IMG/VR virus record: IMGVR_UViG_3300037421_000106 | Direction: 5' to 3' (one strand) | Length of the DNA stretch: 64,000 nt | From: a virus | Lineage: Duplodnaviria; Heunggongvirae; Uroviricota; Caudoviricetes | In this document: piece by piece, positions 38,335-58,128 of the stretch | Layout: every line of letters starts with the position of its first letter | How positions within the stretch are numbered: the stretch's first letter is position 1 | Notes under the pieces: generated by a model | Databases searched by the model: none | Seen by the model: only the letters and a program-made list of their open reading frames with translations | Told to the model about the DNA's origin: nothing | Made by a program: the position numbers and the translations under genes

Positions 38335-39981
38335 CTACACCTCATCCTCGTCAGGTAGATACCCCACGCGAGTGGGTGTCTCTCCGTCGGCGCGCTCGCG
38401 CACCAGGCCGTCGGTGAACTTGAATTGCGCCAGGCGTTGCACATTTGCAACAGCCTTCAGCTTCTCCAGCGTCTCTTCATCCGGAATGGCCAGCACCGCA
38501 TAGGCGTCAGCGCACGCGTCGACCCCGTCATCGTGGCGGCAGTCTGGGAACGGCCGGAAGTGATCCTTGACAGCGTCGGCGCAGTGTGCCATGACCGCGA
38601 CCCACCCCACGTTCAGCTGCGAGGCGAGTGGGTCTGCGCGTGTCTGTTTATCCGATCGCGCAGGGCGCTCCACAACTGTGTAACCGTCAAGCAGCTGTGT
38701 GATGGTCATGAATTGGTCGGTGCCTGCCTGGCCCGGCTCCACCGGCACCGCTATCTTCACGTCACGTCCGTCGCGATGTGCTGTTGCCTTCATCCGCGCC
38801 TTTACCTCATCCGGGCGCGCGCGAAACAGCATGAATTCCTCGATGACGTAGATGTGCACCTGGGGGTAGTACGCCAGCAGCACGCTCGCTGTGAAGTCGG
38901 GCTCGGTCCTACCCGCCTTGAGCTCACGCGCGGCCAGGTCCCATCCGCGGCAGGCTAGGCGAGGACCCGGCGGCCGCACCGTGATCACCGGCATAGCGTC
39001 GACCTTGAATGTCGTACCCGACACGTTGTACGGCTGCTGCATATACTGCGTGGCGAACTCCCACGGTTTCTGCAGGCGATACGCATGCAGCCACTCTGTA
39101 GTGGCGCCGCCTTCCCATCGCGAGTTGTCGTTCTCGTCGAGCGCGGTCAGAGTCAGGTTATGGAACTTGACGCCCAGGATGCTGGTCATGTCCTGACGCC
39201 CATGTTCATCTGGTAGATGAAGCTTCGAGAAAATGTCGTCCGTGGCGGCCCGCTGACCGATCACCAGGAACGGCGTGCGCGTCGTCTCGTTGCGTCGCGA
39301 GTTCACGACACCGCCGACGACGCTCAGCACTTCCTCCTTGCTGAGCTCGCTCTTGGCCTCCTGCAGTTTATGCAAGTCGTCCATGATCAGCGCGCCCGAG
39401 AAGCGATCGAGCACACCTTTGATGCCGACGCCGAAGCCCGTGATCTGGCCGTTGATGCCGACGAACTTCATGTTGCCGCCCTGCGTCGTCTTCGACACCT
39501 CCTTACTGTCGTTCTTCCGGTCGATGACGGTCCGCGGAAACAGCCGCTTGTACAGCGCTGATCCCATCATGTCGCGACGAATCAGGTCCGACGAGTCATT
39601 GGCCAGCTTCTCCGTCGAGCAGATATACATGATGTTACTGTCCGGGAAGCGCCCCATCCCGAACGCGATCCACATGCACACGATGTACGTCTTACCGAAC
39701 CGCGGCGGGATGTTGATGTCGGCGCCCAGGTACTTCCCCTCGAAGCACTGCTGTAAGAATTGCATGAGCGTCGTGTGGAACTCCTGCTCGTCAAACGGCC
39801 GCCCGTCGGAGAGCTCCATGTGCATCAGGTGCACGAAACTGCGGAAGTCCTGCCGGGCCATTGCCTCGCGCACGGCCTGGTGCTGCTCGGGCGTGAGTGC
39901 CTGCTCTGGCCCGGGCTCCTCGGGCGGCAAGACACCGTATGGCGTCACCTCCCACAGGATCGGATCATCTTGCAATCGCAT
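38335..39981 (-). CDS. Terminase large subunit
   Basis: Walker A-like PRFGKTY, DD-containing ATPase core (GALIMDDLHK), C-terminal nuclease-like region; preceded by TerS-like gene; start taken at MRLQDDP (upstream segment overlaps membrane-protein gene). Confidence 0.65.
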   Translation of the reverse strand: MRLQDDPILWEVTPYGVLPPEEPGPEQALTPEQHQAVREAMARQDFRSFVHLMHMELSDGRPFDEQEFHTTLMQFLQQCFEGKYLGADINIPPRFGKTYIVCMWIAFGMGRFPDSNIMYICSTEKLANDSSDLIRRDMMGSALYKRLFPRTVIDRKNDSKEVSKTTQGGNMKFVGINGQITGFGVGIKGVLDRFSGALIMDDLHKLQEAKSELSKEEVLSVVGGVVNSRRNETTRTPFLVIGQRAATDDIFSKLHLPDEHGRQDMTSILGVKFHNLTLTALDENDNSRWEGGATTEWLHAYRLQKPWEFATQYMQQPYNVSGTTFKVDAMPVITVRPPGPRLACRGWDLAARELKAGRTEPDFTASVLLAYYPQVHIYVIEEFMLFRARPDEVKARMKATAHRDGRDVKIAVPVEPGQAGTDQFMTITQLLDGYTVVERPARSDKQTRADPLASQLNVGWVAVMAHCADAVKDHFRPFPDCRHDDGVDACADAYAVLAIPDEETLEKLKAVANVQRLAQFKFTDGLVRERADGETPTRVGYLPDEDEV

Positions 39982-40253
39982 CAGAGGACCCAGACCAGCA
40001 CCGTCAGCGCGAATCCGATGCAGTAACCGCCGAAGTCGATCCACCCTGATTGAATTGACGCACCTTCTTCATGCAAGTCGAACCAGAACTCCTTCCACGC
40101 TGTGAACGCCACCGCGGCCGCGAGCCCGTACCAGCGCAGGCCGGGCAGCCAATGCGACCACAGCGCCAGCACCGTGAAGATCATGAACGCGTGCAGCTCC
40201 AACGACGTCGTGACGGGCGACAACATGTATTTCTTGAACCAATTCACGAACAT
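39981..40253 (-). CDS. Small integral membrane protein
   Basis: 90 aa with 3 hydrophobic segments between TerS and TerL. Confidence 0.4.
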   Translation of the reverse strand: MFVNWFKKYMLSPVTTSLELHAFMIFTVLALWSHWLPGLRWYGLAAAVAFTAWKEFWFDLHEEGASIQSGWIDFGGYCIGFALTVLVWVL

Positions 40254-40420
40254 AGTCTCACCTCTTTAGGGTCACACCACATTTCACCTTCGTCGAATCG
40301 AACAGCTATCAGATCGAACTCGACACGCGTCACCTCACCGCGGGCGCCGGCATGTAGGTACGGCAACCCGCAGCCTTCCGGCAACTTGATTATTTGAATC
40401 GTGTCGCCCACCTTGATCAT
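40250..40420 (-). CDS. Small hypothetical protein (56 aa), not in ORF track
   Basis: GGAG SD then MIKVGDTIQIIKLPEGCGLPYLHAGARGEVTRVEFDLIAVRFDEGEMWCDPKEVRL*. Confidence 0.3.
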
Positions 40421-40422
40421 GA

Positions 40423-41106
40423 TTAACTCCTAAGGATTGGATCGTCCGCCAGTCTAATTGGGGACGTAGTAGACGAGACCGAAACGGGCCTGCCCGTAAC
40501 GACCGTGGCGTCAGTGGCCCGCGCATTCATCGTCCGCAGCCACAGGGAGGCTGCGTGGTCGATCTGAGCCTGGGTCATCCCGGCCGCCGGATCAACCGGC
40601 GTGTCGACCTTCACGCGCGTGGGCGCGTCGATGCCCAGGAGCATGGCGCGTCGATGCCACAGCTTCAGCAGCAGGCCTATGGCTTCGTTCTGAGGCCCCT
40701 CGTCGACCATCTCCTCCAGGACCGGCTGTAGCTGCCCCGTGTTCACGTTGCGCTCCAACAGCACCTGGCCATCAGCGCCCTTCACCGGGATCATGACGAC
40801 CTGGCCGGCGTTCACCTTGATGTACTTGCGCTGCGTCTTCTTGAACAGCTGTGCCTCGACTTTGTCGTATTTCTCCAACTCCATCTCGCGAAACTCCTCG
40901 GCGGCCTGCGAGGGGTTGTCCTGCATGTAGCGCCTGATCATCTTGCTGCAGCCCGAGACGCTAAGCCCCAGCTGATCTGCGCATTCCTTAAGGGTAAGCC
41001 CCTTCAGGCGCAATTCCAGCACTTGCTTCGTTCGCTCGTTGCGCTCGATGGCCGCTACGGTAGTCTTCCCGTGAGAAGGAGCGTGTGGTGTGTGCGATGT
41101 TGACAT
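40423..41106 (-). CDS. Terminase small subunit (HTH-containing)
   Basis: 227 aa; N-terminal HTH-like LKGLTLKECADQLGLSVSGCSKMIRR; first gene of late operon, immediately upstream of membrane protein and TerL. Confidence 0.5.
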   Translation of the reverse strand: MSTSHTPHAPSHGKTTVAAIERNERTKQVLELRLKGLTLKECADQLGLSVSGCSKMIRRYMQDNPSQAAEEFREMELEKYDKVEAQLFKKTQRKYIKVNAGQVVMIPVKGADGQVLLERNVNTGQLQPVLEEMVDEGPQNEAIGLLLKLWHRRAMLLGIDAPTRVKVDTPVDPAAGMTQAQIDHAASLWLRTMNARATDATVVTGRPVSVSSTTSPIRLADDPILRS

Positions 41107-41224
41107 TTCAGGGCCTTGAATTATTTGAGAAATTTTGAAAATTTTGTAGCACTTTCGTCAATTGTAGCATGTCTATAGCCGAGCGCCCGATGCTTATCGC
41201 GACCCTGACCCTAAATCCGGTACC

Positions 41225-41430
41225 TTTTTTTGTGCAACGCATCATTAGTGAGCACTTACTCGTTGTATCGGCGCAACAATGTCGCATTTCTGCCATGCAG
41301 CAAATGACGCAATGCAGCAAATGTTGCATTTGCGCCACTGTCGCATTTTGGAGACACAATGTCGCATTTTAGAGACATGTATCATTTGTGCCACTGTTGC
41401 GCATTCGCAACATTTGCTGCATTTCGGCGT
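41225..41430. promoter_or_regulatory. Divergent control region: array of ~10 GCAAATG/CATTTGC half-sites plus palindromes (iteron/operator-like)
   Basis: TGTCGCATTT x3; perfect palindromes GCAAATG-TTG-CATTTGC (about 41308-41324) and TGTTGCG-CATT-CGCAACA (about 41394-41411); lies between late operon start and first early gene. Confidence 0.5.
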
Positions 41431-41651
41431 TTGCGGGAGAGGGCGGCCGTTCGTCTGGTAGCCCTACAGTCAGAGACGAAAATGTGGCATGTGTCGGGCT
41501 ATCACGCGACGATTGCCACGGGTTCGGTTTTGTAGTAGACTGTCCGTATGTATAGGGTTTGCATTCCCCAGCTAGGACAGTATTTAACCCAAGGGGTTGT
41601 TTTGCTGACCGGGGGAAACGGAAAGCCGTTCATAAGGACAGTAGGCTACAT

Positions 41652-42455
41652 ATGACAGAATTGCTCGAACAGCTACTAGCACCGCACGACGTAATTCCGG
41701 CCCCTTGGGTGTCGCAAATGTTGCGCACGTTGGGATTGCCAAAGCTACATACTCGCGCGCTTACCGACGCTATGAGCGCCGCGGGATTCGAGCGGATCGA
41801 TCGCCCTCGGCTAGGCGCAATGGTGAACAGCGCGTATCGGGGTCGACGCTTTGATACTAGGTCGTGGCCTATACCCGGGGTAGGTCACTGCACTGTCTAC
41901 GTGCGAAATACCGCGGGTGACGCTGAAACGATGGTTCGCAAATACGGGCAAAATATCCCGATCCGTGGTCATGCGGCGCGGGTGTTTCAATGGCTCGATA
42001 CGTTCCCGCGCAAACCTGATGGGCGTCAAACCCGGTTCGAGGATAAACCAGGACGGCGCACGTTGGCGCGTCTGGCAATGGGTGAGATTCTCTATCATGC
42101 TAAACGTTCAGCAGCAAAGGGCGGAAAGCGCGGGCCGGCGCGAGCGACAATCTGTCGCGTTTGCGGGGTCAATCCGCCTACCCATGCGGGTGCGCGATGC
42201 AAAGAGTGTTTGTTGGTATGGCGCCGTGCATTCGACTATCCAGCGCAACGCATCAAACCCGCAAGTGACGCAAGCGCGCCAGTGATCCCCCTTGGACGCA
42301 AGCGGGCGCTCGCGCGTCAGACGGCGCGTATCGAGTCAGAGCGACAAGTGGCAGAGGGCCGCGCATTTGCTGCTGATCTGGCGCGCCGACGCGCCGCGGG
42401 TGAGGCAATCCCGCCCCCTGTCAAACCTTACTGGGTTAGTGACAATGACACGTAG
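41652..42455 (+). CDS. Hypothetical early protein with C-terminal Cys4 ribbon (CRVC...CKEC)
   Basis: First gene rightward of control region; start at MTELLEQ with AGGA SD; ORF-track start 41559 is probably too early. Confidence 0.4.
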   Translation: MTELLEQLLAPHDVIPAPWVSQMLRTLGLPKLHTRALTDAMSAAGFERIDRPRLGAMVNSAYRGRRFDTRSWPIPGVGHCTVYVRNTAGDAETMVRKYGQNIPIRGHAARVFQWLDTFPRKPDGRQTRFEDKPGRRTLARLAMGEILYHAKRSAAKGGKRGPARATICRVCGVNPPTHAGARCKECLLVWRRAFDYPAQRIKPASDASAPVIPLGRKRALARQTARIESERQVAEGRAFAADLARRRAAGEAIPPPVKPYWVSDNDT

Positions 42456-42473
42456 CTCTAAGAGGGTGATAGG

Positions 42474-42752
42474 GTGAGCGCCGCTCTGACGCCGATTGCT
42501 CGTTACCGCGCCGCCGTGGCTACGGTGCGACAGCGCGCTACATTGCCACGGGTGATAGATGCGCCGCTCCTGGAGTGCTTGGACGCGGGGCGCGCCTTCT
42601 GCTTCCTGCGGACCCTGGATAATGTCGAGAGGGTCGCACTGCGTCAGACGTGGGAACAGCATCGGCGCGACACGTGGGCAGCTGACGCAATTGCCCGGTA
42701 TCGAGACATCCGACACATGGCGCTAGGCCAGCATGTGGACACGACGGCATAG
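42474..42752 (+). CDS. Hypothetical protein
   Basis: 92-aa ORF (GTG start). Confidence 0.3.
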   Translation: MSAALTPIARYRAAVATVRQRATLPRVIDAPLLECLDAGRAFCFLRTLDNVERVALRQTWEQHRRDTWAADAIARYRDIRHMALGQHVDTTA

Positions 42753-42852
42753 GCGACAGACGGTAGGTTTGACCCGACGAACGGCGTCATGTTGCAGTGC
42801 ATTCTGTCCGATAATGCATGTGTAGCGCAACCACTCACTCGGAGTCATTCAA

Positions 42853-43467
42853 ATGGCACGTATCAGCAAACCCCGCAAGTCAATCACGACCATGTGGACG
42901 GACCCCCACACGGGAGTCCAATACACGGTTCAAGCGCAACACGCTTTGAGCGCTGCCGAAATGCGCGAAATGTGTGTATGGACCGCGCGATTGCAAGATG
43001 ACTTGCGTAGCGGCGCGAAGCAGATGATCACAACCCCGCACGACGCAAGCGCCGAAACTCCCGCATATATCATGCAGGGGAAGGTTGACGCCATCATGGA
43101 CAATCGCAGCAACCTGAAAGGGCGCGCTATCGGTCAATACCTGGATACGGTTGCGCGCAAGATGATGCAACAGCCGGTTCAACAGCAACAGTCGCAAGCG
43201 CGTGCTGACCGCTATGCAGAATTCGAATGGACCCCGCAAGCTACGTCACTGCTGGCGGATCGGTTCGAGCGTATGCCGCATGCGGGTGACCGGGTAGTGA
43301 TCGGGAATGCCCCGCACATGGTCTTGGAAGTGTGGAGCGCATTCGGGCAGACGCGTATGCGCGCCCAATGCGTCATCGGTATGGAAGGGGTACGCACATT
43401 CGAGCGGATCGCTCGCAATCAATGGCGCGCATTCCAAGACCCAAGTGCGCCAGTGTTCAGCCTGTAA
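42853..43467 (+). CDS. Hypothetical protein (poly-Gln stretch)
   Basis: 204-aa ORF. Confidence 0.4.
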   Translation: MARISKPRKSITTMWTDPHTGVQYTVQAQHALSAAEMREMCVWTARLQDDLRSGAKQMITTPHDASAETPAYIMQGKVDAIMDNRSNLKGRAIGQYLDTVARKMMQQPVQQQQSQARADRYAEFEWTPQATSLLADRFERMPHAGDRVVIGNAPHMVLEVWSAFGQTRMRAQCVIGMEGVRTFERIARNQWRAFQDPSAPVFSL

Positions 43468-43489
43468 CCCTCACTTGGAGACACACAAT

Positions 43490-43706
43490 CATGCACGGCA
43501 CAATCGTCAGTAAGGTTCGCGTCACTCTGTCCGACGGGTCACATGTGTTTGACGTGGTTATGTCCCGCCCGGGCGCTGAAATGGTTCGGTTCAATTGTCC
43601 TGATGAACCGGACGCAGATTCGTTCGTTACGGGTTTACATACGCTCCTCAACTATCACACGCTAGACTGCGCGCATCGTGGTCTTGACCGTGAGGAGAAT
43701 TGCTAA
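43490..43706 (+). CDS. Small hypothetical protein
   Basis: GGAGA SD; MHGTIVSKVRVTLSDG...; 72 aa; stop overlaps next start. Confidence 0.35.
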
Positions 43707-44704
43707 TGAACAAGTACGAATTGATCGGCGAACCGAATGAATGCGGATTGCGGCGCATTCGGTATCTGTCGGACGGTAGTTTAGGGGGATGGCTGGAAAG
43801 CGAAACGAATTTGTCGCAATCAGGCGATGCCCGCGTGTTCGGCGATGCCCGCGTGTACGGCAATGCCCGCGTGTTAGGTAATGCCCGCGTGTACGGCAAT
43901 GCCCGCGTGTTAGGTAATGCCCGCGTGTTCGACAATGCCTGCGTGTTAGGTAATGCCCGCGTGTTCGGCAATGCCCGCGTGTTCGGCAATGCCCGCGTGT
44001 TAGGCACTGTCGAGGTGTTCGACAGTGCCCGCGTGTTCGGCAATGCCCGCGTGTTAGGCAATGCCCGCGTGTACGGCGATGCCCGCGTGTACGGCAATGC
44101 CGAGGTGTTCGACAATGCCCGCGTGTTAGGCACTGTCGAGGTGTACGACGATGCCCACGTGTTCGGCGATGCCCGCGTGTTCGGCGATGCCAGCGTGTTC
44201 GACAATGCCCGCGTGTTCGGCAATGCCCGCGTGTACGACGATGCCAGCGTGTTCGGCAATGCCTGCGTGTTAGGCACTGTCGAGGTGTTCGACAATGCCC
44301 GCGTGTTAGGCACTGTCGAGGTGTTCGACAGTGCCCGCGTGTTCGGCGATGCCAGCGTGTTCGGCAATGCCCGCGTGTTCGGCAATGCCCACATGTACGA
44401 CGATGCCCGCGTGTACGGCGATGCCCGCGTGTACGGCAATGCCGAGGTGTTCGACAATGCCCGCGTGTTCGGCAATGCCGAGGTGTCGAAAACCCCCATT
44501 TGTTTGAGTGGTTTACAGTGGTATATTACGATAACCGAAAATCACATGTTTATTGGGTGCCAAGGTCACACACATGCCGAATGGGCGTCATTTGACGATG
44601 ACACTATCAAACGCATGGATGTTCGGCATGCGCTCAAATTTTGGAAAGACAACGCGCGTATTCTTCTCACTCTTTGCGAGCGTCAAGCAAATGCCGCACT
44701 TTAG
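43700..44704 (+). CDS. Hexapeptide-repeat (left-handed beta-helix-like) protein; ~37 tandem NARV[FYL]G repeats
   Basis: 334 aa; unique N-terminus (50 aa) and C-terminus (~55 aa, Cys/His-containing) flank a perfectly periodic 6-aa repeat A-R-V-[FYL]-G-[ND], encoded by 18-bp tandem DNA repeats GGCAATGCCCGCGTGTTC (about 43800-44490). Confidence 0.55.
   Translation: MLMNKYELIGEPNECGLRRIRYLSDGSLGGWLESETNLSQSGDARVFGDARVYGNARVLGNARVYGNARVLGNARVFDNACVLGNARVFGNARVFGNARVLGTVEVFDSARVFGNARVLGNARVYGDARVYGNAEVFDNARVLGTVEVYDDAHVFGDARVFGDASVFDNARVFGNARVYDDASVFGNACVLGTVEVFDNARVLGTVEVFDSARVFGDASVFGNARVFGNAHMYDDARVYGDARVYGNAEVFDNARVFGNAEVSKTPICLSGLQWYITITENHMFIGCQGHTHAEWASFDDDTIKRMDVRHALKFWKDNARILLTLCERQANAAL
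43800..44490. repeat. 18-bp tandem repeat array (about 37 copies) inside 43700-44704
   Basis: Consensus gGcaATGCCCGCGTGTtc repeated head-to-tail with point variants (CGAGGTG, CAGCGTG, TACGAC variants). Confidence 0.85.
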
Positions 44705-44924
44705 CGTTACCCATGCCGTACCGGGCGCCGTGGTTGAATCGATCGTCTTGGATGCACCCACGGCAGGGGCCGCTTGCACGCTGGCCGCAGAGTGGCTATC
44801 CGTGCCCTTCCCGGACATTCTAGTGGGACAGGTAACGCTAGAGTCAGTGCGACAGATCAGCGACCGCGAAGCGTGGTCACCCGTAACCGACGAACGGCAG
44901 GTTCTACCCGACGAACGGGCTTGA
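44691..44924 (+). CDS. Hypothetical protein
   Basis: 77 aa from MPHFSVTHAV; start overlaps upstream stop. Confidence 0.3.
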   Translation: MPHFSVTHAVPGAVVESIVLDAPTAGAACTLAAEWLSVPFPDILVGQVTLESVRQISDREAWSPVTDERQVLPDERA

Positions 44925-45037
44925 TTGCTGCACCGCACACGCCGATAATATAGGTATCACTTCGGAGCGCGCAAAATGTCAATCACTGTACTTCTGATTA
45001 CTGCGGCAATCGAGCTAGCCCTTTGGGTGCGTCGATA

Positions 45038-45277
45038 ATGGCGACTTACAAGTATCGCGGGTATACGCTCAAGTCTGAAGGGCGCCATAGCGGATGCTCA
45101 GTGTTTGATCCGACTGGCGTAGATGTTACCCGCAAAGTTACCGGGTACAGTTACGTATGGTCGCTGCAAATAGCGCGCGATTGGATTGATAGCCGGCCCG
45201 ATGCGTTGCCTCGCGTGATTCGCACTCGCGCAGTCGTTAAGATCAAGACCCCGCGTGTTGTGTCGGATGGCGCATAA
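45038..45277 (+). CDS. Hypothetical protein
   Basis: MATYKYRGYTLKSEGRH...; ~79 aa. Confidence 0.35.
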   Translation: MATYKYRGYTLKSEGRHSGCSVFDPTGVDVTRKVTGYSYVWSLQIARDWIDSRPDALPRVIRTRAVVKIKTPRVVSDGA

Positions 45278-45492
45278 TGGACAATCAAGGTACCGGCCTT
45301 ATGGCCACAATGCCCGACATGCTGCCGGCGCTGCAACAGACGCACGCGGCCAAGGTCGCTGAATACGCAGTCGGCCCCGTCAGCTTAGGTGATCTGTTGC
45401 ATGTCCACATGCTGCGGGATCTGGCGCGCGGTATCGAAGTGACTGAGCGGCCAGCATCATGGTTCGAACACTTGATGGGGCGCCCATCATGA
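45277..45492 (+). CDS. Hypothetical protein
   Basis: 71-aa ORF. Confidence 0.3.
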   Translation: MDNQGTGLMATMPDMLPALQQTHAAKVAEYAVGPVSLGDLLHVHMLRDLARGIEVTERPASWFEHLMGRPS

Positions 45493-45779
45493 TCGGATAC
45501 AGTGTCAAGCGTGCGGATCTATGCGAAGCGGGCCGCAAGGGATGGGCTTGCGTAGACTCGAACGGCGCACCCGTTGAATACTTCGAAGAGTACAAGCATG
45601 CGGCCGAACGTGCGAAGCTTGAAAACGATACGGCGCGCAAACCGCGCAAGCCCCGAGCCGATCAGAGTATACGCGACGCGCGTAAACTGCGGCGCTATCT
45701 TGGGAGTGCGTCGCCATCAACCGTCGGTAACTGTGACGGTCTAAATTTTGACAACTTGGGCGAAAGCCCTGACTATTGA
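45489..45779 (+). CDS. Hypothetical basic protein
   Basis: MIGYSVKRADL...; ~96 aa. Confidence 0.3.
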   Translation: MIGYSVKRADLCEAGRKGWACVDSNGAPVEYFEEYKHAAERAKLENDTARKPRKPRADQSIRDARKLRRYLGSASPSTVGNCDGLNFDNLGESPDY

Positions 45780-45786
45780 GGCAACT

Positions 45787-46473
45787 ATGAGCAACCCCGC
45801 CGAATATTCGCAATTGTTCGAAGCCCACGGGCACCCGTTCAAGCTTGAAGTATTCCATGACGCGCACGCGGCCGCCCCGTGGGAAATGTCGGACGGACAC
45901 GGACCCGTGCGCGCAATCCCGCGCAATTCAGCGAGCGGCAAACGTCCGGGGGAAAGACCGCTTGATACGTACAGCGACGGATCCCCGCATTTGCTTTATG
46001 ACTGGGGCACTGCGCACGCCACCGCGATGCGCGACGGATGGCGTCCGAGTATCACTCCCGACGGCGTGCAGACACGGCGCACGCTTGCCGCTGCAGCGGT
46101 CGCAGAGGATTTTGCGTACTTGCGCGCGTGGTTGCGCGACGAATGGCACTATGTCGGCGTATGCGTCACTCACGAGGCAAGCGGCGCACATGCTTCCCTT
46201 TGGGGTATCGAGTCAACCGATACCGCGTATCACTTGACGGTCGCGAACGAGCTAGCCGCGGACATTTGCGCCGATCCCAAATTCAAAGCATGGCGCCAGT
46301 TATTGGCGGATTGTGAACGCGCGTTAGACTGCGCGGACCGTTTGAATGATTGGGCGTTCAAGACTGAGCGTAAACGCGAGCAATTCGGCCGCAACGTTCA
46401 CGCGGATCGATTCTGCCAAGACATGCGCGACGCGGCCGCACTGCTTAGCACACTCGCAAAGGGGAAAGAATGA
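45787..46473 (+). CDS. Hypothetical protein
   Basis: MSNPAEYSQLFEAHGHPFKLEV...; ~228 aa. Confidence 0.4.
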   Translation: MSNPAEYSQLFEAHGHPFKLEVFHDAHAAAPWEMSDGHGPVRAIPRNSASGKRPGERPLDTYSDGSPHLLYDWGTAHATAMRDGWRPSITPDGVQTRRTLAAAAVAEDFAYLRAWLRDEWHYVGVCVTHEASGAHASLWGIESTDTAYHLTVANELAADICADPKFKAWRQLLADCERALDCADRLNDWAFKTERKREQFGRNVHADRFCQDMRDAAALLSTLAKGKE

Positions 46474-47021
46474 GTACCGAACGTAACACAGCAATCGAAA
46501 CGTACGTATCAATGTTAGGCGTGCACTACGCGGCGGAATTCGTACCGTTCAGCAAGTCACGCAACGCGAAGCCCGCGGCTAAGCTGTCGGAATTGTCGCT
46601 CAATTGGCGCGTGACGCTTTCGAAGCGGTCGCCCATCGATGGACAAACGACGCAGCAATTTACGACGGACTATCAGGCGGGCATTGGGCATATCCCGGGT
46701 TTGCCGTACAATGCGCGCCCGGCGTGCGTCCGTAATTCCTGCGAACATGGGTCGAGTTACGTTGATTCGTCTAGCGGCGTCATTCGCGGGCGCCCGTTGA
46801 GTGCGCCAGCGCTGGCGGATGTACTGTACTGTCTGATCAGCGACGCGGACGCAATCGAGTATCCCACGTACGAATATTGGGCTTCGAACATGGGCTATGA
46901 CACAGACTCACGCAAGGGTGAGGCAACCTATCGCGCATGCCTTGAAATTGATTTGAAGCTTCGCGCCTTGATTGGCGACGGCGCGCTGACCAAATTGCGC
47001 GAATTGTTTCAGGACTATTGA
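46470..47021 (+). CDS. Hypothetical protein
   Basis: 183-aa ORF. Confidence 0.4.
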   Translation: MSTERNTAIETYVSMLGVHYAAEFVPFSKSRNAKPAAKLSELSLNWRVTLSKRSPIDGQTTQQFTTDYQAGIGHIPGLPYNARPACVRNSCEHGSSYVDSSSGVIRGRPLSAPALADVLYCLISDADAIEYPTYEYWASNMGYDTDSRKGEATYRACLEIDLKLRALIGDGALTKLRELFQDY

Positions 47022-47022
47022 C

Positions 47023-47241
47023 ATGACTTGCATCGTTGAGCTACCGAGTAAGAAAGCACTGCGCGAACGCATCGCGACGGCGCCCGAACGTGTCTACATC
47101 ACGGATCCGTCGATATTCAAGCCACGCTATTTTACCGCGTCCGAAATGACGATCGGTCAGCGGGAAGTGGTAACCAATCATCCGAAACGATCATGGTTCG
47201 CTCAGATCACGCGGACTGCGACAGGGTTTAAGGTGACGTGA
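47023..47241 (+). CDS. Hypothetical protein
   Basis: 72-aa ORF. Confidence 0.3.
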   Translation: MTCIVELPSKKALRERIATAPERVYITDPSIFKPRYFTASEMTIGQREVVTNHPKRSWFAQITRTATGFKVT

Positions 47242-47453
47242 TGCGAGTACGCACAGGGTCTTGGTACCGATTCGAGCCTATCGGCATGGACGTATGGCGC
47301 CCCGCACATCGCGGGCTGCAACGCGGGGATGTCGTGCGGGTGGTCAACCTTCACGGGTGTCCGCCGGCTAACACCATGGGGCATTGCCACGTTGAAACAC
47401 TCGCGGGCGAATTCGCGGGCTTGGTATTCTGTAACTCACTGCAAAGGGTTTGA
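47238..47453 (+). CDS. Hypothetical protein
   Basis: 71-aa ORF. Confidence 0.3.
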   Translation: MMRVRTGSWYRFEPIGMDVWRPAHRGLQRGDVVRVVNLHGCPPANTMGHCHVETLAGEFAGLVFCNSLQRV

Positions 47454-47660
47454 GTATGACTGAGCTACGTACAGACTACGCGGCCGATCGTTTGCGCGCC
47501 GTGTCCGAATGCCTCGACACGATGAATGCGGGAAAGGCGGATCCGCTCGAAACACTTGAGGCAATCGCGGGCGCTATCTATGACGACCTTGTTTGACAAG
47601 GTTCAAGGCGCTTTAGATTTTTCAGAGGTGCACGCGCAAATGATCGAATTGCGACAGTAA

Positions 47661-47690
47661 CCCGCGTCTCTAGACGGCGCGGTTTTGTTG
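47661..47690 (+). terminator. Possible weak terminator (short GC stem + TTTTGTT)
   Basis: CCGCG...CGCGG followed by TTTTGTTG after short ORF ending 47597. Confidence 0.25.
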
Positions 47691-47830
47691 AGGGTGCGCA
47701 CGGCGCGCTAAGCCGGATGATCCGAGGTGCAACATGCGTAACTGATCGATCGACCCATTAACCAGTGTGAGAGTTACGCGGCCCGCGCAATCAAGCGGGT
47801 CGCTTTGCGGTCACATTGAAAGGGTAACCG

Positions 47831-48277
47831 ATGATCGATTGTTCCGATTTATCCGCGCGATCGCATGTTTCGATCGCGTTGCAATTTCTAAAATACGCAC
47901 GCGACGCGCTCAAAGCGGCAGAATGCCCCAATACGTTAGCACGCGTGCGCGCCGCGATCGACTCGTGCGAGGGTGCGTTACGCAATCAAGCGCACCGCGA
48001 CGCGTTCCCGGATCGCAAGCGTATCAAGACACCCAAAGCGCGCAACGTCGGCGCCCGTCAACGTCAGATACGCGCGGACGAAATGCGTACGGATCCGCAC
48101 GCGGCAGATATGCCATGTCCGCATTGGGATGATGTGCAAGCGGCAATAGACGCACCGCGTGATCGATACGGCAACCCGTTACCGGATGCACGCACACATG
48201 TTTATCCGGACGCGACACGCACCGCACCGCATACACAATTTGTGCGCGGCGCGTGGCGCGCGAAGCGGGGCGACTAA
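47831..48277 (+). CDS. Hypothetical protein
   Basis: 148-aa ORF after intergenic gap. Confidence 0.35.
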   Translation: MIDCSDLSARSHVSIALQFLKYARDALKAAECPNTLARVRAAIDSCEGALRNQAHRDAFPDRKRIKTPKARNVGARQRQIRADEMRTDPHAADMPCPHWDDVQAAIDAPRDRYGNPLPDARTHVYPDATRTAPHTQFVRGAWRAKRGD

Positions 48278-49017
48278 TGAAAAAACCCACCGGTTACGTG
48301 ATCTACCGGGGTCCGTCGCAATTGGATGGCGCGCCCATCGTTGCGATTGCCACGATGAAAAGCGACAATCGCAAGACGGGCAACATGGTGCAAACGTGGA
48401 TTTTGCGCGACGATCGGTCGCCCATGGAAACGTCCAAAGCGGGCGCCGATGGTTCAGTGTGCGGCGACTGTAAGCATCGATGGTCACTCGGTGGCGCGTG
48501 TTATGTCAACATCGGGCAGGGTCCGGGCGCGATCTTTCGCGCGTTCCAGCGCGGTAATTATCAAGACTTGACGCAAGCGAATTCCCCGCTTTGGGCAATC
48601 GCTCAGATCACGCGCGGCCGCACGGTGCGACTCGGCGCATACGGTGATCCCGCAGCGGTTCCCGTGCACGTCTGGGAAGCAATCACGGCGGAATCCGACG
48701 GGCACACGGGCTACACGCACCAATGGCGCAACCCCGTCGCTGAACCGCTGCGCGGGCTTTGCATGGCCAGCGTCGACACTCCCGATGAATACGCGGCCGC
48801 GCAGCGCGCGGGGTGGCGCACGTTTCGCGTGCGGTGCACGGATGACGATAGCGTTATGCCCCGTGAATTCGAGTGCGTCAGCGACACCAAGGGAACCGCT
48901 TGCGCCGATTGCCGCGCATGCGACGGTGCGGCGCGCGGCCCGGGTCAGGCATCGGTCTTTATCACGGTGCACGGGTCGTTAAAAAGCCGGTTCCCGGTAA
49001 CGATCGCCCGCGCGTGA
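48277..49017 (+). CDS. Hypothetical Cys-rich protein
   Basis: MKKPTGYVIYRG...; ~246 aa; CGDCKH, CADCRACDG clusters. Confidence 0.4.
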   Translation: MKKPTGYVIYRGPSQLDGAPIVAIATMKSDNRKTGNMVQTWILRDDRSPMETSKAGADGSVCGDCKHRWSLGGACYVNIGQGPGAIFRAFQRGNYQDLTQANSPLWAIAQITRGRTVRLGAYGDPAAVPVHVWEAITAESDGHTGYTHQWRNPVAEPLRGLCMASVDTPDEYAAAQRAGWRTFRVRCTDDDSVMPREFECVSDTKGTACADCRACDGAARGPGQASVFITVHGSLKSRFPVTIARA

Positions 49018-49591: not shown

Positions 49592-49652
49592 CCATCCATC
49601 CACCGGTATGTAAGCCATCCATCCACCGGTATGTAAGCCATCCATCCACCGG
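49592..49652 (+). repeat. 23-bp direct repeat (2.65 copies) immediately upstream of homing endonuclease start
   Basis: CCATCCATCCACCGGTATGTAAG x2 + CCATCCATCCACCGG; the last copy supplies GGAG SD for 49661. Confidence 0.8.
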
Positions 49653-49660
49653 AGATATCA

Positions 49661-50230
49661 ATGCGCATTGGCATTCTGTACATGCACGTGGGTCCAACTG
49701 GGAAGATCTATATTGGAAAGACATGGCAGCCAAAAGGCGAGCGCTTCAACGGAAATTGGGCGCGTCAATACACCAAATCCATGGCGGCCGATGCGTTGCG
49801 TTACGGCCGTAAAGCTTTCGAAACGATCGAGCTCTATCGGATAGAGAGCGAGGACCCGTCATATGACGACCAGCAACTGGCGATGCTGGAGATCATGGCT
49901 ATTGAATTATTCAACAGCAGGACTCCGCGCGGATACAACATCGCCCGAGGCGGCGGCCGAGCGCCAAGCGCGCCTGAAACATGCGCCAAGATCAGCGGCG
50001 AAGGAAACCCGATGTTCGGTCGGAAACACACGAAGCGAACAGTGAAACAAATGACAGAGGCGCGTCGGGCAGAAAATCTCCCGGAAGAACAACGCATAGC
50101 GATGCGAGAGGCAAATAAGTTGCGTCCGCGCAACGCGCGCGGGCATTATATCAAACTCGGGACTGAGTATCATCCCAATACACTTAAGCGGCGAGGTATA
50201 AAACCCTTGACCATCCAGCCGGGGGTATGA
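49661..50230 (+). CDS. GIY-YIG homing endonuclease with NUMOD3 repeats
   Basis: GILYMHVGPTGKIYIGKT...YNIARGG (GIY-YIG core) followed by NUMOD3-like repeats (PETCAKISGEGNPMFGRKHTKRTVKQM). Confidence 0.75.
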   Translation: MRIGILYMHVGPTGKIYIGKTWQPKGERFNGNWARQYTKSMAADALRYGRKAFETIELYRIESEDPSYDDQQLAMLEIMAIELFNSRTPRGYNIARGGGRAPSAPETCAKISGEGNPMFGRKHTKRTVKQMTEARRAENLPEEQRIAMREANKLRPRNARGHYIKLGTEYHPNTLKRRGIKPLTIQPGV

Positions 50231-56365: not shown

Positions 56366-56653
56366 ATGGCCGCCAAGCCTTTCAAGAATGCAATGACCCT
56401 CGATGAATTCGGAACGAAGCACGACAGAACCGTTTTCATTCCGGCGCGCATCACGCAGACGTTGAAGATGCTCGGTGATGCAGGAATGTATGACATGGAT
56501 TTCCTTCGCGAAGCCAAGGTTTCGACGAATGATATCGGACCTTTCCGAGAACAATTTGAAGGTCACACGGTCATTGTCCGCGAGAACGGCAAATCCAAGA
56601 TCGTGTGGTTTGGAACAATCGCAGCAGCGGCAAAGGCCCGCGACAAGGTGTAA
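56366..56653 (+). CDS. Hypothetical protein
   Basis: 95-aa ORF. Confidence 0.35.
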   Translation: MAAKPFKNAMTLDEFGTKHDRTVFIPARITQTLKMLGDAGMYDMDFLREAKVSTNDIGPFREQFEGHTVIVRENGKSKIVWFGTIAAAAKARDKV

Positions 56654-56655
56654 GC

Positions 56656-58128
56656 ATGAAAACAATAAGCCTCGAAGAATTTGAACGCCGGCACCACCCG
56701 ATGCACGATGAGGGTGAACAGATCCATCAATTCGATCTGGACATCCGCTCGGGGACGAGGTTTATCGTTACTGCAGCCCAGAACGCCACTCCGGTTCATC
56801 CGGAGTGGTGGTCCTGTCTTACCGGCATGGCAAAGGCGAAAGACGCGCAATTAGTCGTCATTCCGTTGCGCTACAAGAATCCGACGAGCCGCTGGACCGG
56901 CAGTCAGCGCAACGACGATTACTGGGTCAGCGCGGTCATGCCATACTTGTTCAACGGCCGGCACGAGTTCAACAAGAACCTCATGCTGCTCGGTGATATC
57001 AAGATCCAGCCGACGGCGACCAGCCCGCTGACAGGATCGGACGCACTATCGTTCGCCTCGTCAGGCATCATCGGTCACACGAAAATGCAGTTGCGCTCGA
57101 TCGCCACTCCTAGCAATCGCATGGCGAAGATCCTGACCACGACGGGCGCCTGCACGGTGGAAAACTACACCGATTCTCGAGCCGGCAAGACCGGCGAATT
57201 CCACCACTCGCTGTCGGCGATCATGGTCGAAGTCGTTGGTTCGAAGTTCTTCCTGCGTCAGCTGCACTTCGACAAGAAAACGAAATCGTGTACGGATATC
57301 GGCATGCAGTACTTCGCCGACGGATCGTTCGGCGTGGCCCCGCGCGCGCTGGCCCTCGTCATGGGTGACACGCACGTCGACTTCGTGGATCCGGGCGTCG
57401 AGCATGCGACCTGGGGCCGCAACGGTATCGTTGAGGTAATTCGGCCCGAGCACGTCGTATGGCACGATACACTCGATGCGTACAGCTGCTCGCCACATCA
57501 CGCCGGGGATCCGTTCATAGCCCGCGCGAAGCAGATGAGTGGTCGGCACAATGTGCGTGCCGAAGTGGAACGTGCGATCCAGTACGTTGCCACACACACC
57601 TCGGATCACTTCAAATCCATCGTGATCGCCAGCAACCACGACGATATGCTGGCCCGATGGGTCAAGCGGCACGATTGGAAGACGGATCCCTCGAACGCCG
57701 AGTTCTACCTGGAGCTCGCGCTGCGCATGCACCGCGGTACCCGGATGACGGATCACGGCACCGAGCATCCGGATCCGTTCGCGATGCTGTTGCGGGAAGC
57801 GAACATCCCGACGCTGCGAGTGCTGGACCTGGACGAGTCGTTTGTGCTCGGCAATGTCGAGCTCAGCATGCACGGCGACAAGGGCCCGAACGGTGCGCGC
57901 GGTTCGATCAAGAACATCCGCAGGCTCGGCATCCGCTCGATTATCGGCCACAGTCACATTTACGGAATTGACGAGGGTTGCTACCAGGGCGGCACATCCT
58001 CGCGGCTGCGCCAGGATTGGAATCATGGCGCGAGCGCGTGGTTGAACGTACATATCCTGTTGAATCACGACGGTAAGCGTCAAGGTTTGGTGATGATCGA
58101 AGGTTTATGGAGAGGTGTGACAAAATAA
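56656..58128 (+). CDS. Calcineurin-like metallophosphoesterase family protein
   Basis: Motifs MGDTHVDF (GDxHxD), IASNHDD (GNHD/E), MHGDKGPNG, IIGHSHI (GHxH); start at MKTISLEEF. Confidence 0.55.
   Translation: MKTISLEEFERRHHPMHDEGEQIHQFDLDIRSGTRFIVTAAQNATPVHPEWWSCLTGMAKAKDAQLVVIPLRYKNPTSRWTGSQRNDDYWVSAVMPYLFNGRHEFNKNLMLLGDIKIQPTATSPLTGSDALSFASSGIIGHTKMQLRSIATPSNRMAKILTTTGACTVENYTDSRAGKTGEFHHSLSAIMVEVVGSKFFLRQLHFDKKTKSCTDIGMQYFADGSFGVAPRALALVMGDTHVDFVDPGVEHATWGRNGIVEVIRPEHVVWHDTLDAYSCSPHHAGDPFIARAKQMSGRHNVRAEVERAIQYVATHTSDHFKSIVIASNHDDMLARWVKRHDWKTDPSNAEFYLELALRMHRGTRMTDHGTEHPDPFAMLLREANIPTLRVLDLDESFVLGNVELSMHGDKGPNGARGSIKNIRRLGIRSIIGHSHIYGIDEGCYQGGTSSRLRQDWNHGASAWLNVHILLNHDGKRQGLVMIEGLWRGVTK

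What the first reader, a model, noticed from the sequence alone, without database searches (positions are those of the whole stretch)
43700..44704. Early gene encoding ~37 perfect hexapeptide (A-R-V-[FYL]-G-[ND]) repeats from an 18-bp tandem DNA array
About 680 bp are near-perfect head-to-tail copies of GGCAATGCCCGCGTGTTC. They are in frame and give a strictly periodic 6-residue repeat that fits the left-handed beta-helix hexapeptide rule [LIV]-G-x-x-[STAV]-x, but lack the active-site loops of acyltransferases. Unique N- and C-terminal domains flank the array and the variant units (VEVFDS, ASVFDN, AHMYDD) recur with a higher-order period. Such a regular beta-helix in a phage early region could be a DNA/nucleic-acid mimic (cf. 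pentapeptide-repeat Qnr/MfpA), a host-takeover or anti-defense factor, or a scaffold. The DNA array is also a candidate for slipped-strand copy-number variation. The opposite strand carries a full-length ORF too (NTRALSNT repeats), so strand assignment rests on context.
Basis: seen in the sequence. Interest (0 to 1): 0.8.

Follow-up and report, generated by a model that had tools for sequence, protein, structure and literature searches.

The report
Phage hexapeptide-repeat beta-helix protein gene
This is a real phage gene whose middle is 37 in-frame copies of an 18-base unit; it belongs to a large, already catalogued family of YdcK-like beta-helix repeat proteins of unknown function, and the repeat count differs between closely related phages.

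Summary
Window 43823-44488 is an 18-bp tandem array of 37 units, in frame within a 332-aa CDS (43706-44704, +). Adjacent copies match at 79%, so it is regular but not "near-perfect", and no higher-order period exists.

The product belongs to a known family: Pfam PF18836 (YdcK beta-solenoid repeat, E=5e-34), PHROGs 5070/7964, and PDB YdcK 2F9C/2PIG (E=1e-17). More than 6,600 homologues were found. Many share the layout: a YdcK-type N-cap, 3-45 hexapeptides, and a C-terminal module that varies.

The + strand codes. The minus ORF is a by-product, because the consensus unit has no stop in any of the six frames.

The gene lies among small orphan genes between the terminase and replication modules. 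Homologues in annotated phages also sit in early regions.

Repeat number varies between close relatives: 37 here against 33 plus a truncated 22-unit paralogue in the nearest relative, and 200-267 codons among four sibling Vibrio phages.

One new point: the 71-aa C-terminal module is not in Pfam and is mostly fused elsewhere to pentapeptide-repeat helices.

Function is untested. My best guess is a non-enzymatic rod-shaped host-interaction factor. The array is nearly neutral, which does not favour a DNA mimic. Verdict: new member of a known family, moderate interest.

The parts
43692..43697 (+). Shine-Dalgarno-like GAGGAG, 8 nt before the ATG
   Evidence: Read directly from the sequence.
43706..44704 (+). 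CDS of the repeat protein (332 aa plus TAG). Its ATG overlaps the stop of the upstream 72-aa gene (TAATG). Its last 14 nt overlap the next gene, which starts at 44691.
   Evidence: ORF list and sequence. Family matches PF18836 E=5e-34, phrog_5070 E=4e-115. Orthologue in L006.
43706..43822 (+). N-terminal cap, aa 1-39 (MNKYELIGEP...GGWLESETNLSQS). This is the YdcK-type cap motif.
   Evidence: Aligns to YdcK 2F9C residues 38 onward. G27, G28 and L36 are invariant in 68 homologues. 83 of the 120 top homologues carry it. AF2 pLDDT >90.
43823..44488 (+). 18-bp tandem array: 37 hexapeptides G-[ND]-A-[R/E..]-V-[FYL], aa 40-261. Predicted beta-solenoid of about 12 turns.
   Evidence: TRF. Unit table. 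Per-position composition: A 33/37 and V 36/37 nearly fixed, the other four positions vary. PF18836 matches in 9 stretches.
44489..44701 (+). C-terminal module, aa 262-332 (KTPICLSGLQWYITITENHMFIGCQGHTHAEW...FW...). Predicted as four short strands followed by three helices. Not in Pfam.
   Evidence: AF2 pLDDT 91-98. No Pfam hit. phrog_31567 and phrog_37032, both unknown function. 1084 representative clusters. Mostly fused to pentapeptide repeats.
43648..44499 (-). Antisense ORF (283 aa, NTRALP repeats). Not a gene; a by-product of a stop-free repeat unit.
   Evidence: The consensus unit has no stop in any of six frames, and three frames stay open across the real array. The only Pfam match is below threshold and low-complexity.
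43488..43706 (+). Upstream 72-aa orphan gene (MHGTIVSKVRV...), translationally coupled to the repeat gene
   Evidence: ORF. Conserved in L006, L085 and L086 directly upstream of the repeat gene. No family hit.
44691..44924 (+). Downstream 77-aa orphan gene, overlapping the repeat gene by 14 nt
   Evidence: ORFs in the window and in L006. No family hit.

Best explanation
Window 43706-44704 (+) is a genuine accessory gene in the early, non-structural block of a tailed phage. Its product has three parts. First, a 39-aa YdcK-type N-terminal cap. Second, 37 uninterrupted hexapeptides of the YdcK beta-solenoid type (Pfam PF18836). These most likely stack into a single-stranded left-handed beta-helix of about 12 turns (roughly 6 nm, from 18 residues and about 4.8 A per turn; this figure is my estimate). 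Ala and Val fill the core, and the other four positions lie on the surface. Third, a 71-aa C-terminal alpha/beta module with near-invariant G-C-x2-H...W...F-W. In other phage proteins this module is usually fused to pentapeptide-repeat helices, or stands nearly alone.

The solenoid has no loops and no conserved catalytic residues, so I infer it is not an enzyme. It looks like a rigid rod of tolerated, fast-changing length. The conserved C-terminal module would then be the specific partner-binding or effector part. The most likely role is a host-interaction factor (takeover or counter-defence) made early in infection.

At the DNA level, the 18-bp array gains and loses whole units by slippage or unequal recombination. 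This changes rod length while keeping the reading frame.

Shown here: gene, strand, family, architecture, early-region position, array-length variation. Inferred: non-enzymatic nature, division of labour between rod and C-terminal module, biological role.
For: Coding and strand. RBS, TAATG coupling and co-orientation with neighbours. More than 6,665 homologues at E<1e-5, many with the same N-cap and C-module. The antisense ORF is explained by a stop-free unit.

Non-enzymatic. 37 units with no insertion at all. All acyltransferase and carbonic-anhydrase NCBIfam models score far below their cut-offs.

Core and surface pattern. Position 3 is A in 33/37 units and position 5 is V in 36/37, while positions 1, 2, 4 and 6 vary. 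Only 1 of about 16 variant codons is synonymous.

Early or accessory position. TerL at 38335-40044(-), then a divergent + block of orphan genes, then helicase and primase. In Aeromonas phage Aer_P220 the homologue lies upstream of the RNA polymerase. In Mycobacterium phage Boilgate gp64 lies beside NrdH, HNH and primase. In the Liberibacter phage it lies between repressor and antirepressor. The Xanthomonas and Vibrio phage homologues lie among small hypothetical genes.

Length variation. The L006 orthologue has 33 units, differing only by whole-unit indels of 3+1 units, with flanks 86-96% identical. L006 also has a truncated 22-unit paralogue. Vibrio sibling phages with 97-99.6% identical flanks have 200, 260 and 267 codons, and two of the four are disrupted. 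Across the family, arrays run from about 3 to 45 units.

C-module autonomy. 1084 clusters, always C-terminal, in proteins of 68 to about 300 aa (one 3,482-aa outlier apart). Of the best 147, 90 carry Pentapeptide PF00805 and 12 carry PF18836. BFVD structural hits include phage 'Pentapeptide' proteins.
Against: There is no functional, expression or interaction evidence of any kind, and no paper in the searched library mentions PF18836 or characterises a phage homologue.

The AF2 model is low-confidence across the array (pLDDT about 50). Handedness and turn size therefore rest mainly on homology to YdcK.

The oligomeric state is unknown. LbH enzymes are typically trimers whose active sites lie between subunits, so an enzymatic or ligand-binding trimer is not formally excluded.

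Array-length differences come from short-read or metagenome assemblies, which mis-assemble tandem repeats. Four of four short contigs of close relatives end inside the array.

Disruption in two of four Vibrio phages could mean the gene has little function. PADLOC gives no hit.
Confidence: 0.55

Rival explanations
1. DNA or nucleic-acid mimic. The beta-helix rod imitates duplex DNA and titrates a DNA-binding host enzyme such as a restriction enzyme, topoisomerase or defence nuclease, as the pentapeptide-repeat proteins Qnr/MfpA do for gyrase.
For: The protein is rod-shaped, loop-free and of variable length. The same C-terminal module is fused in 90 of 147 relatives to pentapeptide repeats, the repeat class of the known gyrase-binding mimics (the Qnr/MfpA property is from established literature, not tested here). 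In a T7-like phage the homologue lies in the early region upstream of the RNA polymerase; from memory, that is where T7 keeps the DNA mimic Ocr.
Against: The array is nearly neutral: 23 K+R against 27 D+E, net -4 over 222 aa, pI 5.2, with Arg the commonest surface residue. Homologue arrays average -0.17 charge per unit. The solenoid parts of C-module relatives average -3 per 100 aa. From memory, Ocr- and ArdA-type mimics are far more acidic. There is no evidence of dimer geometry or phosphate-like charge spacing.
Confidence: 0.12
2. Bactofilin-like polymer. The protein polymerises end to end into filaments in the infected cell, as the public annotation 'polymer-forming cytoskeletal protein' implies.
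For: Pfam Bactofilin PF04519 scores 41.1 bits, above its cut-off of 27.9. Several homologues are named this way in public records.
Confidence: 0.08
3. Virion or adsorption-related beta-helix fibre, for example a tail-spike-like rod.
Against: The gene is on the opposite strand from the structural and terminase block, inside a run of small early-type orphan genes. Homologues lie in early or lysogeny-control regions. It is disrupted in viable cultured Vibrio phages. The tailspike matches score lower than the LbH matches.
Confidence: 0.05
4. Active LbH enzyme, either an acyl/acetyltransferase or a gamma-carbonic anhydrase, as some database names suggest.
For: It belongs to the LbH superfamily. JGI and UniProt-style names include 'carbonic anhydrase/acetyltransferase-like (isoleucine patch)' and 'putative acyltransferase'.
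Against: Pfam Hexapep is not significant (E=0.12, 12.6 bits against cut-off 27). All NCBIfam enzyme models score far below their cut-offs: cysE 33.8 of 210, LpxA 18.7 of 231, LpxD 16 of 242, PaaY 15.5 of 320. There are no loop insertions in 37 units. Only two His residues occur in the array, both at the variable surface position. The array length is freely variable.
Confidence: 0.03
5. The DNA array is the functional element (iterons or origin, protein-binding repeats, or a CRISPR-like array), or the minus-strand ORF is the gene, and the + ORF is incidental.
For: The 18-bp unit is about the length of an iteron. All six frames of the consensus are open. Public records have annotated 'CRISPR spacers' in such arrays and have called the opposite strand.
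Against: The non-repeat N- and C-terminal parts in the + frame are conserved across thousands of proteins from unrelated phages with different DNA sequences. Indels between relatives keep the + frame. The core positions A and V are nearly invariant while surface positions vary. The units are head to tail with no spacers, so this is not a CRISPR array. The minus ORF has no family match.
Confidence: 0.02

Closest known systems
YdcK (E. coli / Salmonella; PDB 2F9C, 2PIG; Pfam PF18836 B_solenoid_ydck; NCBIfam NF040481)
   Different: It scores 101.9 bits against the YdcK equivalog cut-off of 350, so it is not a YdcK orthologue. Its repeats are far more regular than those of YdcK in the alignment. 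It has a different C-terminal module. It is phage-encoded, with a length-variable array.
Phage PHROG families 5070 and 7964 (unknown function)
   Same: Strong full-length matches (E=4e-115 and 5e-89). Homologues occur in at least 98 GenBank phage records from Vibrio, Aeromonas, Xanthomonas, Acidovorax, Streptococcus, Mycobacterium, Liberibacter and Bacillus phages.
   Different: With 37 units, this array is at the long end of the top 120 homologues (median 20, range 9-45). None of these families has a tested function.
Canonical hexapeptide-repeat LbH transferases and gamma-carbonic anhydrases (Pfam PF00132; LpxA, LpxD, GlmU, PglD, Cam)
   Same: Six-residue period with a small residue and an aliphatic residue pointing inward. 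They are the best structural matches.
   Different: The Gly is not at i+1 (the unit is V-[FYL]-G-N, not [LIV]-G-x-x). Hexapep is not significant. There are no loops, no catalytic His and no substrate-binding domain. The enzyme models all fail their cut-offs.
Pentapeptide-repeat proteins (Pfam PF00805; Qnr, MfpA, AlbG)
   Same: A loop-poor beta-helical rod of variable length. The window's C-terminal module is the same module that follows pentapeptide repeats in 90 of 147 relatives. One example is P0123, with 59% identity in the module.
   Different: The period is 6, not 5. From memory, the fold is a left-handed triangular helix rather than a right-handed quadrilateral one. There is no sequence homology in the repeat part. 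No gyrase link has been shown.
Bactofilins (Pfam PF04519)
   Same: A beta-helical repeat with a similar V/G periodicity. The Pfam score is above its cut-off.
   Different: This hit overlaps a much stronger PF18836 hit. Both ends are capped by folded domains. The structural matches favour LbH.

Membership tests
Pfam PF18836 B_solenoid_ydck (YdcK beta-solenoid repeat) | Score above the Pfam gathering cut-off (30 bits) | tested here: met
   113.6 bits, E=5.3e-34, 9 stretches.
Pfam PF18836 / YdcK-like proteins | Sequence homology to the crystallised YdcK, including the N-terminal cap motif | tested here: met
   phmmer against PDB: 2F9C/2PIG E=1.2e-17. The alignment starts at GGW..NLSQ.GD.
Pfam PF18836 / YdcK-like proteins | Left-handed single-stranded beta-helix fold | tested here: inconclusive
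NCBIfam NF040481 YdcK family (equivalog) | Whole-protein score of at least 350 bits | tested here: not met
   101.9 bits. It is a relative of YdcK, not an orthologue.
Hexapeptide-repeat transferases (Pfam PF00132) | Score above the gathering cut-off (27 bits), with [LIV]-G-x-x-[STAV]-x and Gly at i+1 | tested here: not met
   12.6 bits, E=0.12. The residue after V is F/Y/L in 36 of 37 units.
Hexapeptide-repeat transferases / gamma-carbonic anhydrases | Loop insertions and catalytic or metal-binding His residues; a match to an enzyme equivalog model | tested here: not met
   No insertion in 37 units. All enzyme models score far below their cut-offs.
Bactofilin (Pfam PF04519) | Score above the gathering cut-off (27.9 bits) | tested here: met
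   41.1 bits, E=2.2e-10, but it overlaps the far stronger PF18836 match.
Bactofilin (Pfam PF04519) | Polymerisation into filaments through free helix ends | not testable with these tools
   Folded caps at both ends (pLDDT >90) argue against it. This is inference only.
Pentapeptide-repeat proteins (Pfam PF00805) | Five-residue repeat A(D/N)LXX | tested here: not met
   The period is 6, and PF00805 is not among the Pfam hits. Only the C-terminal module is shared.
DNA-mimic proteins (Ocr, ArdA, Qnr/MfpA type) | Strongly acidic, DNA-like surface charge | tested here: not met
   Array net charge -4 over 222 aa, pI 5.2; whole protein pI 5.6. Charge spacing on a structure could not be tested.
CRISPR array (as annotated in some public homologues) | Direct repeats separated by unique spacers | tested here: not met
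   The 18-bp units are head to tail with no spacers, and the region lies within a conserved CDS.
Known anti-phage defence proteins (PADLOC-DB) | Match to any defence-system model | tested here: not met
   No hit for the protein or for seven neighbours.

The most novel reading that the evidence does not exclude
Phages carry a large, unstudied class of early proteins built on one plan. A conserved Cys/His-bearing C-terminal module, absent from Pfam, is coupled to a beta-solenoid rod. The repeat chemistry of that rod is interchangeable: left-handed YdcK-type hexapeptides here, right-handed pentapeptide repeats in most relatives. The rod's length is retuned quickly by slippage of an in-frame DNA array. 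If the rod is a decoy or ruler that positions the C-module on a host DNA-handling or defence complex, then array-length variation would be an adaptive, arms-race-driven trait and not just neutral instability.
Probability: 0.15. Interest if true: 0.75.

Novelty: new member of a known kind. Interest (0 to 1): 0.35.

Why it matters
The gene itself is an ordinary member of a catalogued family, so the main value is in clarifying what it is.

First, the strand and frame are settled. The same stop-free repeat has misled public annotation: a wrong strand, a wrong frame, 'MFS transporter', 'glycerol kinase' and 'CRISPR spacers'.

Second, such arrays break short-read assemblies and differ in unit number between near-identical phages. 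Gene length in this family should therefore be trusted only from long reads.

Third, the family is very large (>6,600 hits), sits in early regions of unrelated phages, and has no known function. That makes it a reasonable candidate for host-takeover or counter-defence screens.

Fourth, the shared C-terminal module links YdcK-type hexapeptide proteins with phage pentapeptide-repeat proteins. This gives a concrete handle, one conserved 70-aa domain with a G-C-x2-H motif, for finding the common target.

Tried and rejected
- Near-identity DNA search of 40000-48000 against GenBank phages found nothing.
- AF2 from the single sequence gave pLDDT 52.8. AF2 with a 68-sequence alignment raised the caps above 90 but left the array at about 50, probably because arrays of different length do not align. 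Fold and handedness therefore rest mostly on homology to YdcK.
- A word-indexed search with the C-module alone found only 2 proteins, and with a profile only 8. The exhaustive HMMER search was needed to find the family.
- The C-module against PDB gave WD40-repeat hits (E down to 5e-10) with zero significant stretches. I rejected these as summed weak matches to a repetitive target; they also conflict with the strands-plus-helices model. A profile of the module found nothing in PDB.
- Literature searches for YdcK, PF18836, 'polymer-forming cytoskeletal protein' with phage, left-handed beta-helix with anti-defence, and hexapeptide repeat with prophage found nothing relevant. Searches on phage pentapeptide-repeat proteins found only general reviews and one unrelated Qnr-type gene.
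- I considered a link to the Liberibacter 'hypervariable prophage genes' but did not establish it.
- The promoter and terminator scan was no better than shuffled sequence.
- PADLOC gave no hits.
- Higher-order periodicity of the array was tested and rejected.
- The crude excess of non-synonymous over synonymous unit variants (about 15 to 1) is suggestive but not statistically robust, so I do not rely on it.
Full report
**1. The observation**

Tandem Repeats Finder reports one large array in the window: 43823-44479, period 18, 36.5 copies, 79% matches, no indels, consensus GGCAATGCCCGCGTGTTC. Read in the frame of the ORF 43700-44704, it gives 37 hexapeptides in unbroken register, aa 40-261, nt 43823-44488.

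The start codon is the ATG at 43706. GAGGAG lies 8 nt upstream. The ATG overlaps the stop of the upstream 72-aa ORF as TAATG. Homologues begin MNKYEL or MKKYEL. The product is therefore 332 aa. The next gene starts at 44691 and overlaps the end of this one by 14 nt.

'Near-perfect' overstates the regularity. Only 2 of 37 units equal the consensus, and there are 21 distinct DNA units and 19 distinct peptides.

The claimed higher-order period is absent. Self-identity is 0.78-0.85 at every lag from 1 to 19 units, and the GTVEVF variant units lie at irregular spacings.

**2. Which strand codes**

The consensus unit has no stop codon in any of the six frames. In the real array, three frames remain open: the + frame and two minus frames. 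The 283-aa antisense ORF is therefore an expected by-product.

Several things identify the + frame as coding:
- its ribosome-binding site and its coupling to both neighbours;
- its orientation, which matches the surrounding genes;
- the conservation of its non-repeat N- and C-terminal parts in many proteins whose DNA is unrelated.

The antisense ORF has no family match above threshold.

**3. What the protein is**

Pfam gives PF18836 (YdcK beta-solenoid repeat) at 113.6 bits against a cut-off of 30, E=5e-34, in nine stretches. Bactofilin scores 41.1 bits. The canonical Hexapep model is not significant at E=0.12. PHROGs 5070 and 7964, both of unknown function, match at E=4e-115 and 5e-89.

NCBIfam's YdcK equivalog scores 101.9 bits against a cut-off of 350. 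Every acyltransferase or carbonic-anhydrase model falls far below its threshold.

The only solved structure found by sequence is YdcK (2F9C/2PIG, E=1e-17). That alignment includes the N-terminal motif GGW..NLSQ.GD.

Within the array, position 3 is Ala in 33 of 37 units and position 5 is Val in 36 of 37. Positions 1, 2, 4 and 6 vary (G/D, N/D/T/S, R/E/S/C/H, F/Y/L). This fits a core of A and V with the other positions on the surface.

There is no loop insertion anywhere in the 37 units. The features that make LbH proteins enzymes are therefore missing.

**4. Family and architecture**

The word-indexed search returned more than 6,665 proteins at E<1e-5. Among the top 120, 83 share the N-cap and 44 share the C-terminal module. 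The uninterrupted hexapeptide run ranges from 9 to 45 units, median 20. Versions with only 3-5 units also exist.

tblastn finds homologues in 98 GenBank phage records from very different hosts. They are annotated variously as hypothetical, 'polymer-forming cytoskeletal', 'trimeric LpxA-like', 'putative acyltransferase', 'glycerol kinase' or 'MFS transporter'.

Seventy-three IMG/VR loci carry similar arrays, with mean unit-to-unit DNA identity of 0.57-0.90. The window's value is 0.80, which is typical for that set. The set is biased towards similar units, because it was found with peptide patterns taken from this protein.

**5. Context**

The window is a tailed-phage genome segment. It has a large terminase at 38335-40044(-) with a small-terminase-position gene beside it. 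From 41559 onwards there is a divergent + strand block of small orphan genes that contains the repeat gene. Further along come a homing endonuclease, a helicase and a primase.

No transcript evidence exists. 'Early' is inferred from position, and the promoter scan was uninformative.

Homologues sit in comparable places:
- upstream of the RNA polymerase in the T7-like Aeromonas phage Aer_P220;
- between NrdH and HNH/primase in Mycobacterium phage Boilgate;
- between repressor and antirepressor in a Liberibacter phage;
- among small hypothetical genes in Xanthomonas and Vibrio phages.

**6. Copy-number variation**

The nearest relative is IMG/VR contig L006, whose flanks are 86-96% identical at the DNA level. 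Its orthologue has 308 aa and 33 units. It differs from the window only by whole-unit indels (3+1 units), while the caps are about 96% identical.

L006 also carries an extra truncated paralogue immediately upstream. It has an identical N-cap, 22 units with a 54-bp superperiod, and no C-module.

Four sibling Vibrio breoganii phages have 97-99.6% identical flanks. Their genes are 200 aa, 260 aa, 267 codons with two in-frame stops at a duplication junction, and a frameshifted copy.

Four of four short-read metagenome contigs from close relatives end inside the array.

These results support array instability and suggest the gene is dispensable. The caveat is that tandem arrays are exactly where assemblies go wrong.

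**7. The C-terminal module**

Residues 262-332 are predicted with pLDDT 91-98 as four short strands followed by three helices. They match no Pfam family and nothing in PDB.

An exhaustive HMMER search of 1.84 billion representatives finds 1,084 clusters at E<=0.001. The module is always at the C-terminus, in proteins of 68 to about 300 aa, apart from one 3,482-aa outlier with eight weak stretches, P0154.

Of the best 147 representatives, 90 carry Pfam Pentapeptide repeats, 12 carry PF18836 and 8 carry a 'Decapeptide' repeat. Eighteen of the 148 listed are 95 aa or shorter, so they are nearly stand-alone. Near-invariant residues form I-G-C-x2-H...W..F...I..M...F-W.

BFVD structural matches include phage 'Pentapeptide' proteins aligned on this module.

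The window protein is thus the less common hexapeptide version of a plan in which one conserved C-module follows a beta-solenoid of either repeat class.

**8. Mechanism**

Shown here: the gene, its strand, its family, its three-part architecture, its early-region position and the variation in array length.

Inferred: the rod is not an enzyme, because it has no loops, all enzyme models fail, and its length is freely variable. The C-module is the specific interacting part, because it is conserved, autonomous and always terminal. The protein is probably a host-interaction factor.

The DNA-mimic version of this idea gains indirect support from the link to pentapeptide repeats. Charge does not favour it: the array is net -4 over 222 aa with pI 5.2, and Arg is its commonest surface residue. 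The solenoid parts of related proteins average -3 per 100 aa.

The bactofilin reading rests on a secondary Pfam hit and is disfavoured by the capped ends. Enzyme, virion-fibre and DNA-element readings are each contradicted by specific results listed under the rivals. PADLOC gives no hit.

**9. Novelty and score**

The repeat family, a crystal structure of a member, and PHROG and NCBIfam models already exist. This is a new member of a known kind whose function is unknown. No paper in the searched library mentions PF18836 or characterises a phage homologue, and the papers that mention YdcK do so only in passing.

The points that go beyond the catalogue are the shared C-module with pentapeptide-repeat proteins, the documented array-length differences between near-identical phages, and the systematic mis-annotation these arrays cause.

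Interest is moderate at 0.35.

Noticed in passing
window 49592-49652: A perfect 23-bp tandem repeat, 2.7 copies (CCATCCATCCACCGGTATGTAAG), ends 8 nt before the ATG of a homing-endonuclease-like ORF at 49661-50230 (phrog_314). Its purpose is unknown.
   Followed up: partly
L006 5261-5779 (IMGVR_UViG_3300037852_000220): The closest relative carries an extra truncated paralogue just upstream of the orthologue. It has an identical N-cap, 22 units with a clear 54-bp (3-unit) superperiod, and no C-terminal module. An extra small gene comes with it, which suggests cassette duplication by recombination at the shared gene starts or arrays.
   Followed up: partly
L001 3944-4504; L080 3263-3892; L003, L081, L082, L083; rows H20, H25, H34, H49: Public annotation of this family is often wrong because the repeat has no stop codons. 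In Acidovorax phage AP1 the CDS is called on the opposite strand. In Aeromonas phage Aer_P220 a wrong-frame CDS is named 'MFS-type transporter'. The Vibrio phages carry 'CRISPR spacer' features inside the array. Streptococcus Javan prophage copies are named 'glycerol kinase'.
   Followed up: yes
L003 3833-4636 and L082 about 1240-2022 (Vibrio phages 1.139.B and 1.209.O): In two of four near-identical cultured Vibrio phages, the gene is interrupted inside the array. One has two in-frame stops at a duplication junction; the other has a frameshifting duplication. This is either real loss of a dispensable gene or short-read mis-assembly.
   Followed up: partly
L004, L005, L085, L086: All four short-read metagenome contigs from close relatives of this phage end inside the hexapeptide array. 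The array acts as an assembly breakpoint.
   Followed up: yes
window 40423-41106 (-): The gene next to the large terminase, where a small terminase would be expected, matches phrog_645, which is labelled 'Rnase E' (E=3e-23). The label may be misleading.
   Followed up: no
P0027, P0116 (homologues): The YdcK-type cap plus array also occurs fused behind a ClpP protease domain (P0027, 552 aa). It also occurs in a 538-aa chromosomal protein with a long non-repeat N-terminal region that starts with a hydrophobic stretch (P0116, on a 2.49-Mb contig). The solenoid is therefore used in other architectures too.
   Followed up: no
window 48253-49017 (+) and 56605-58128 (+): Two conserved phage genes near the region have little or no functional annotation. 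One matches phrog_2554 (E=2e-72, unknown function). The other matches phrog_1745, labelled 'DNA transfer protein' (E=2e-132).
   Followed up: no
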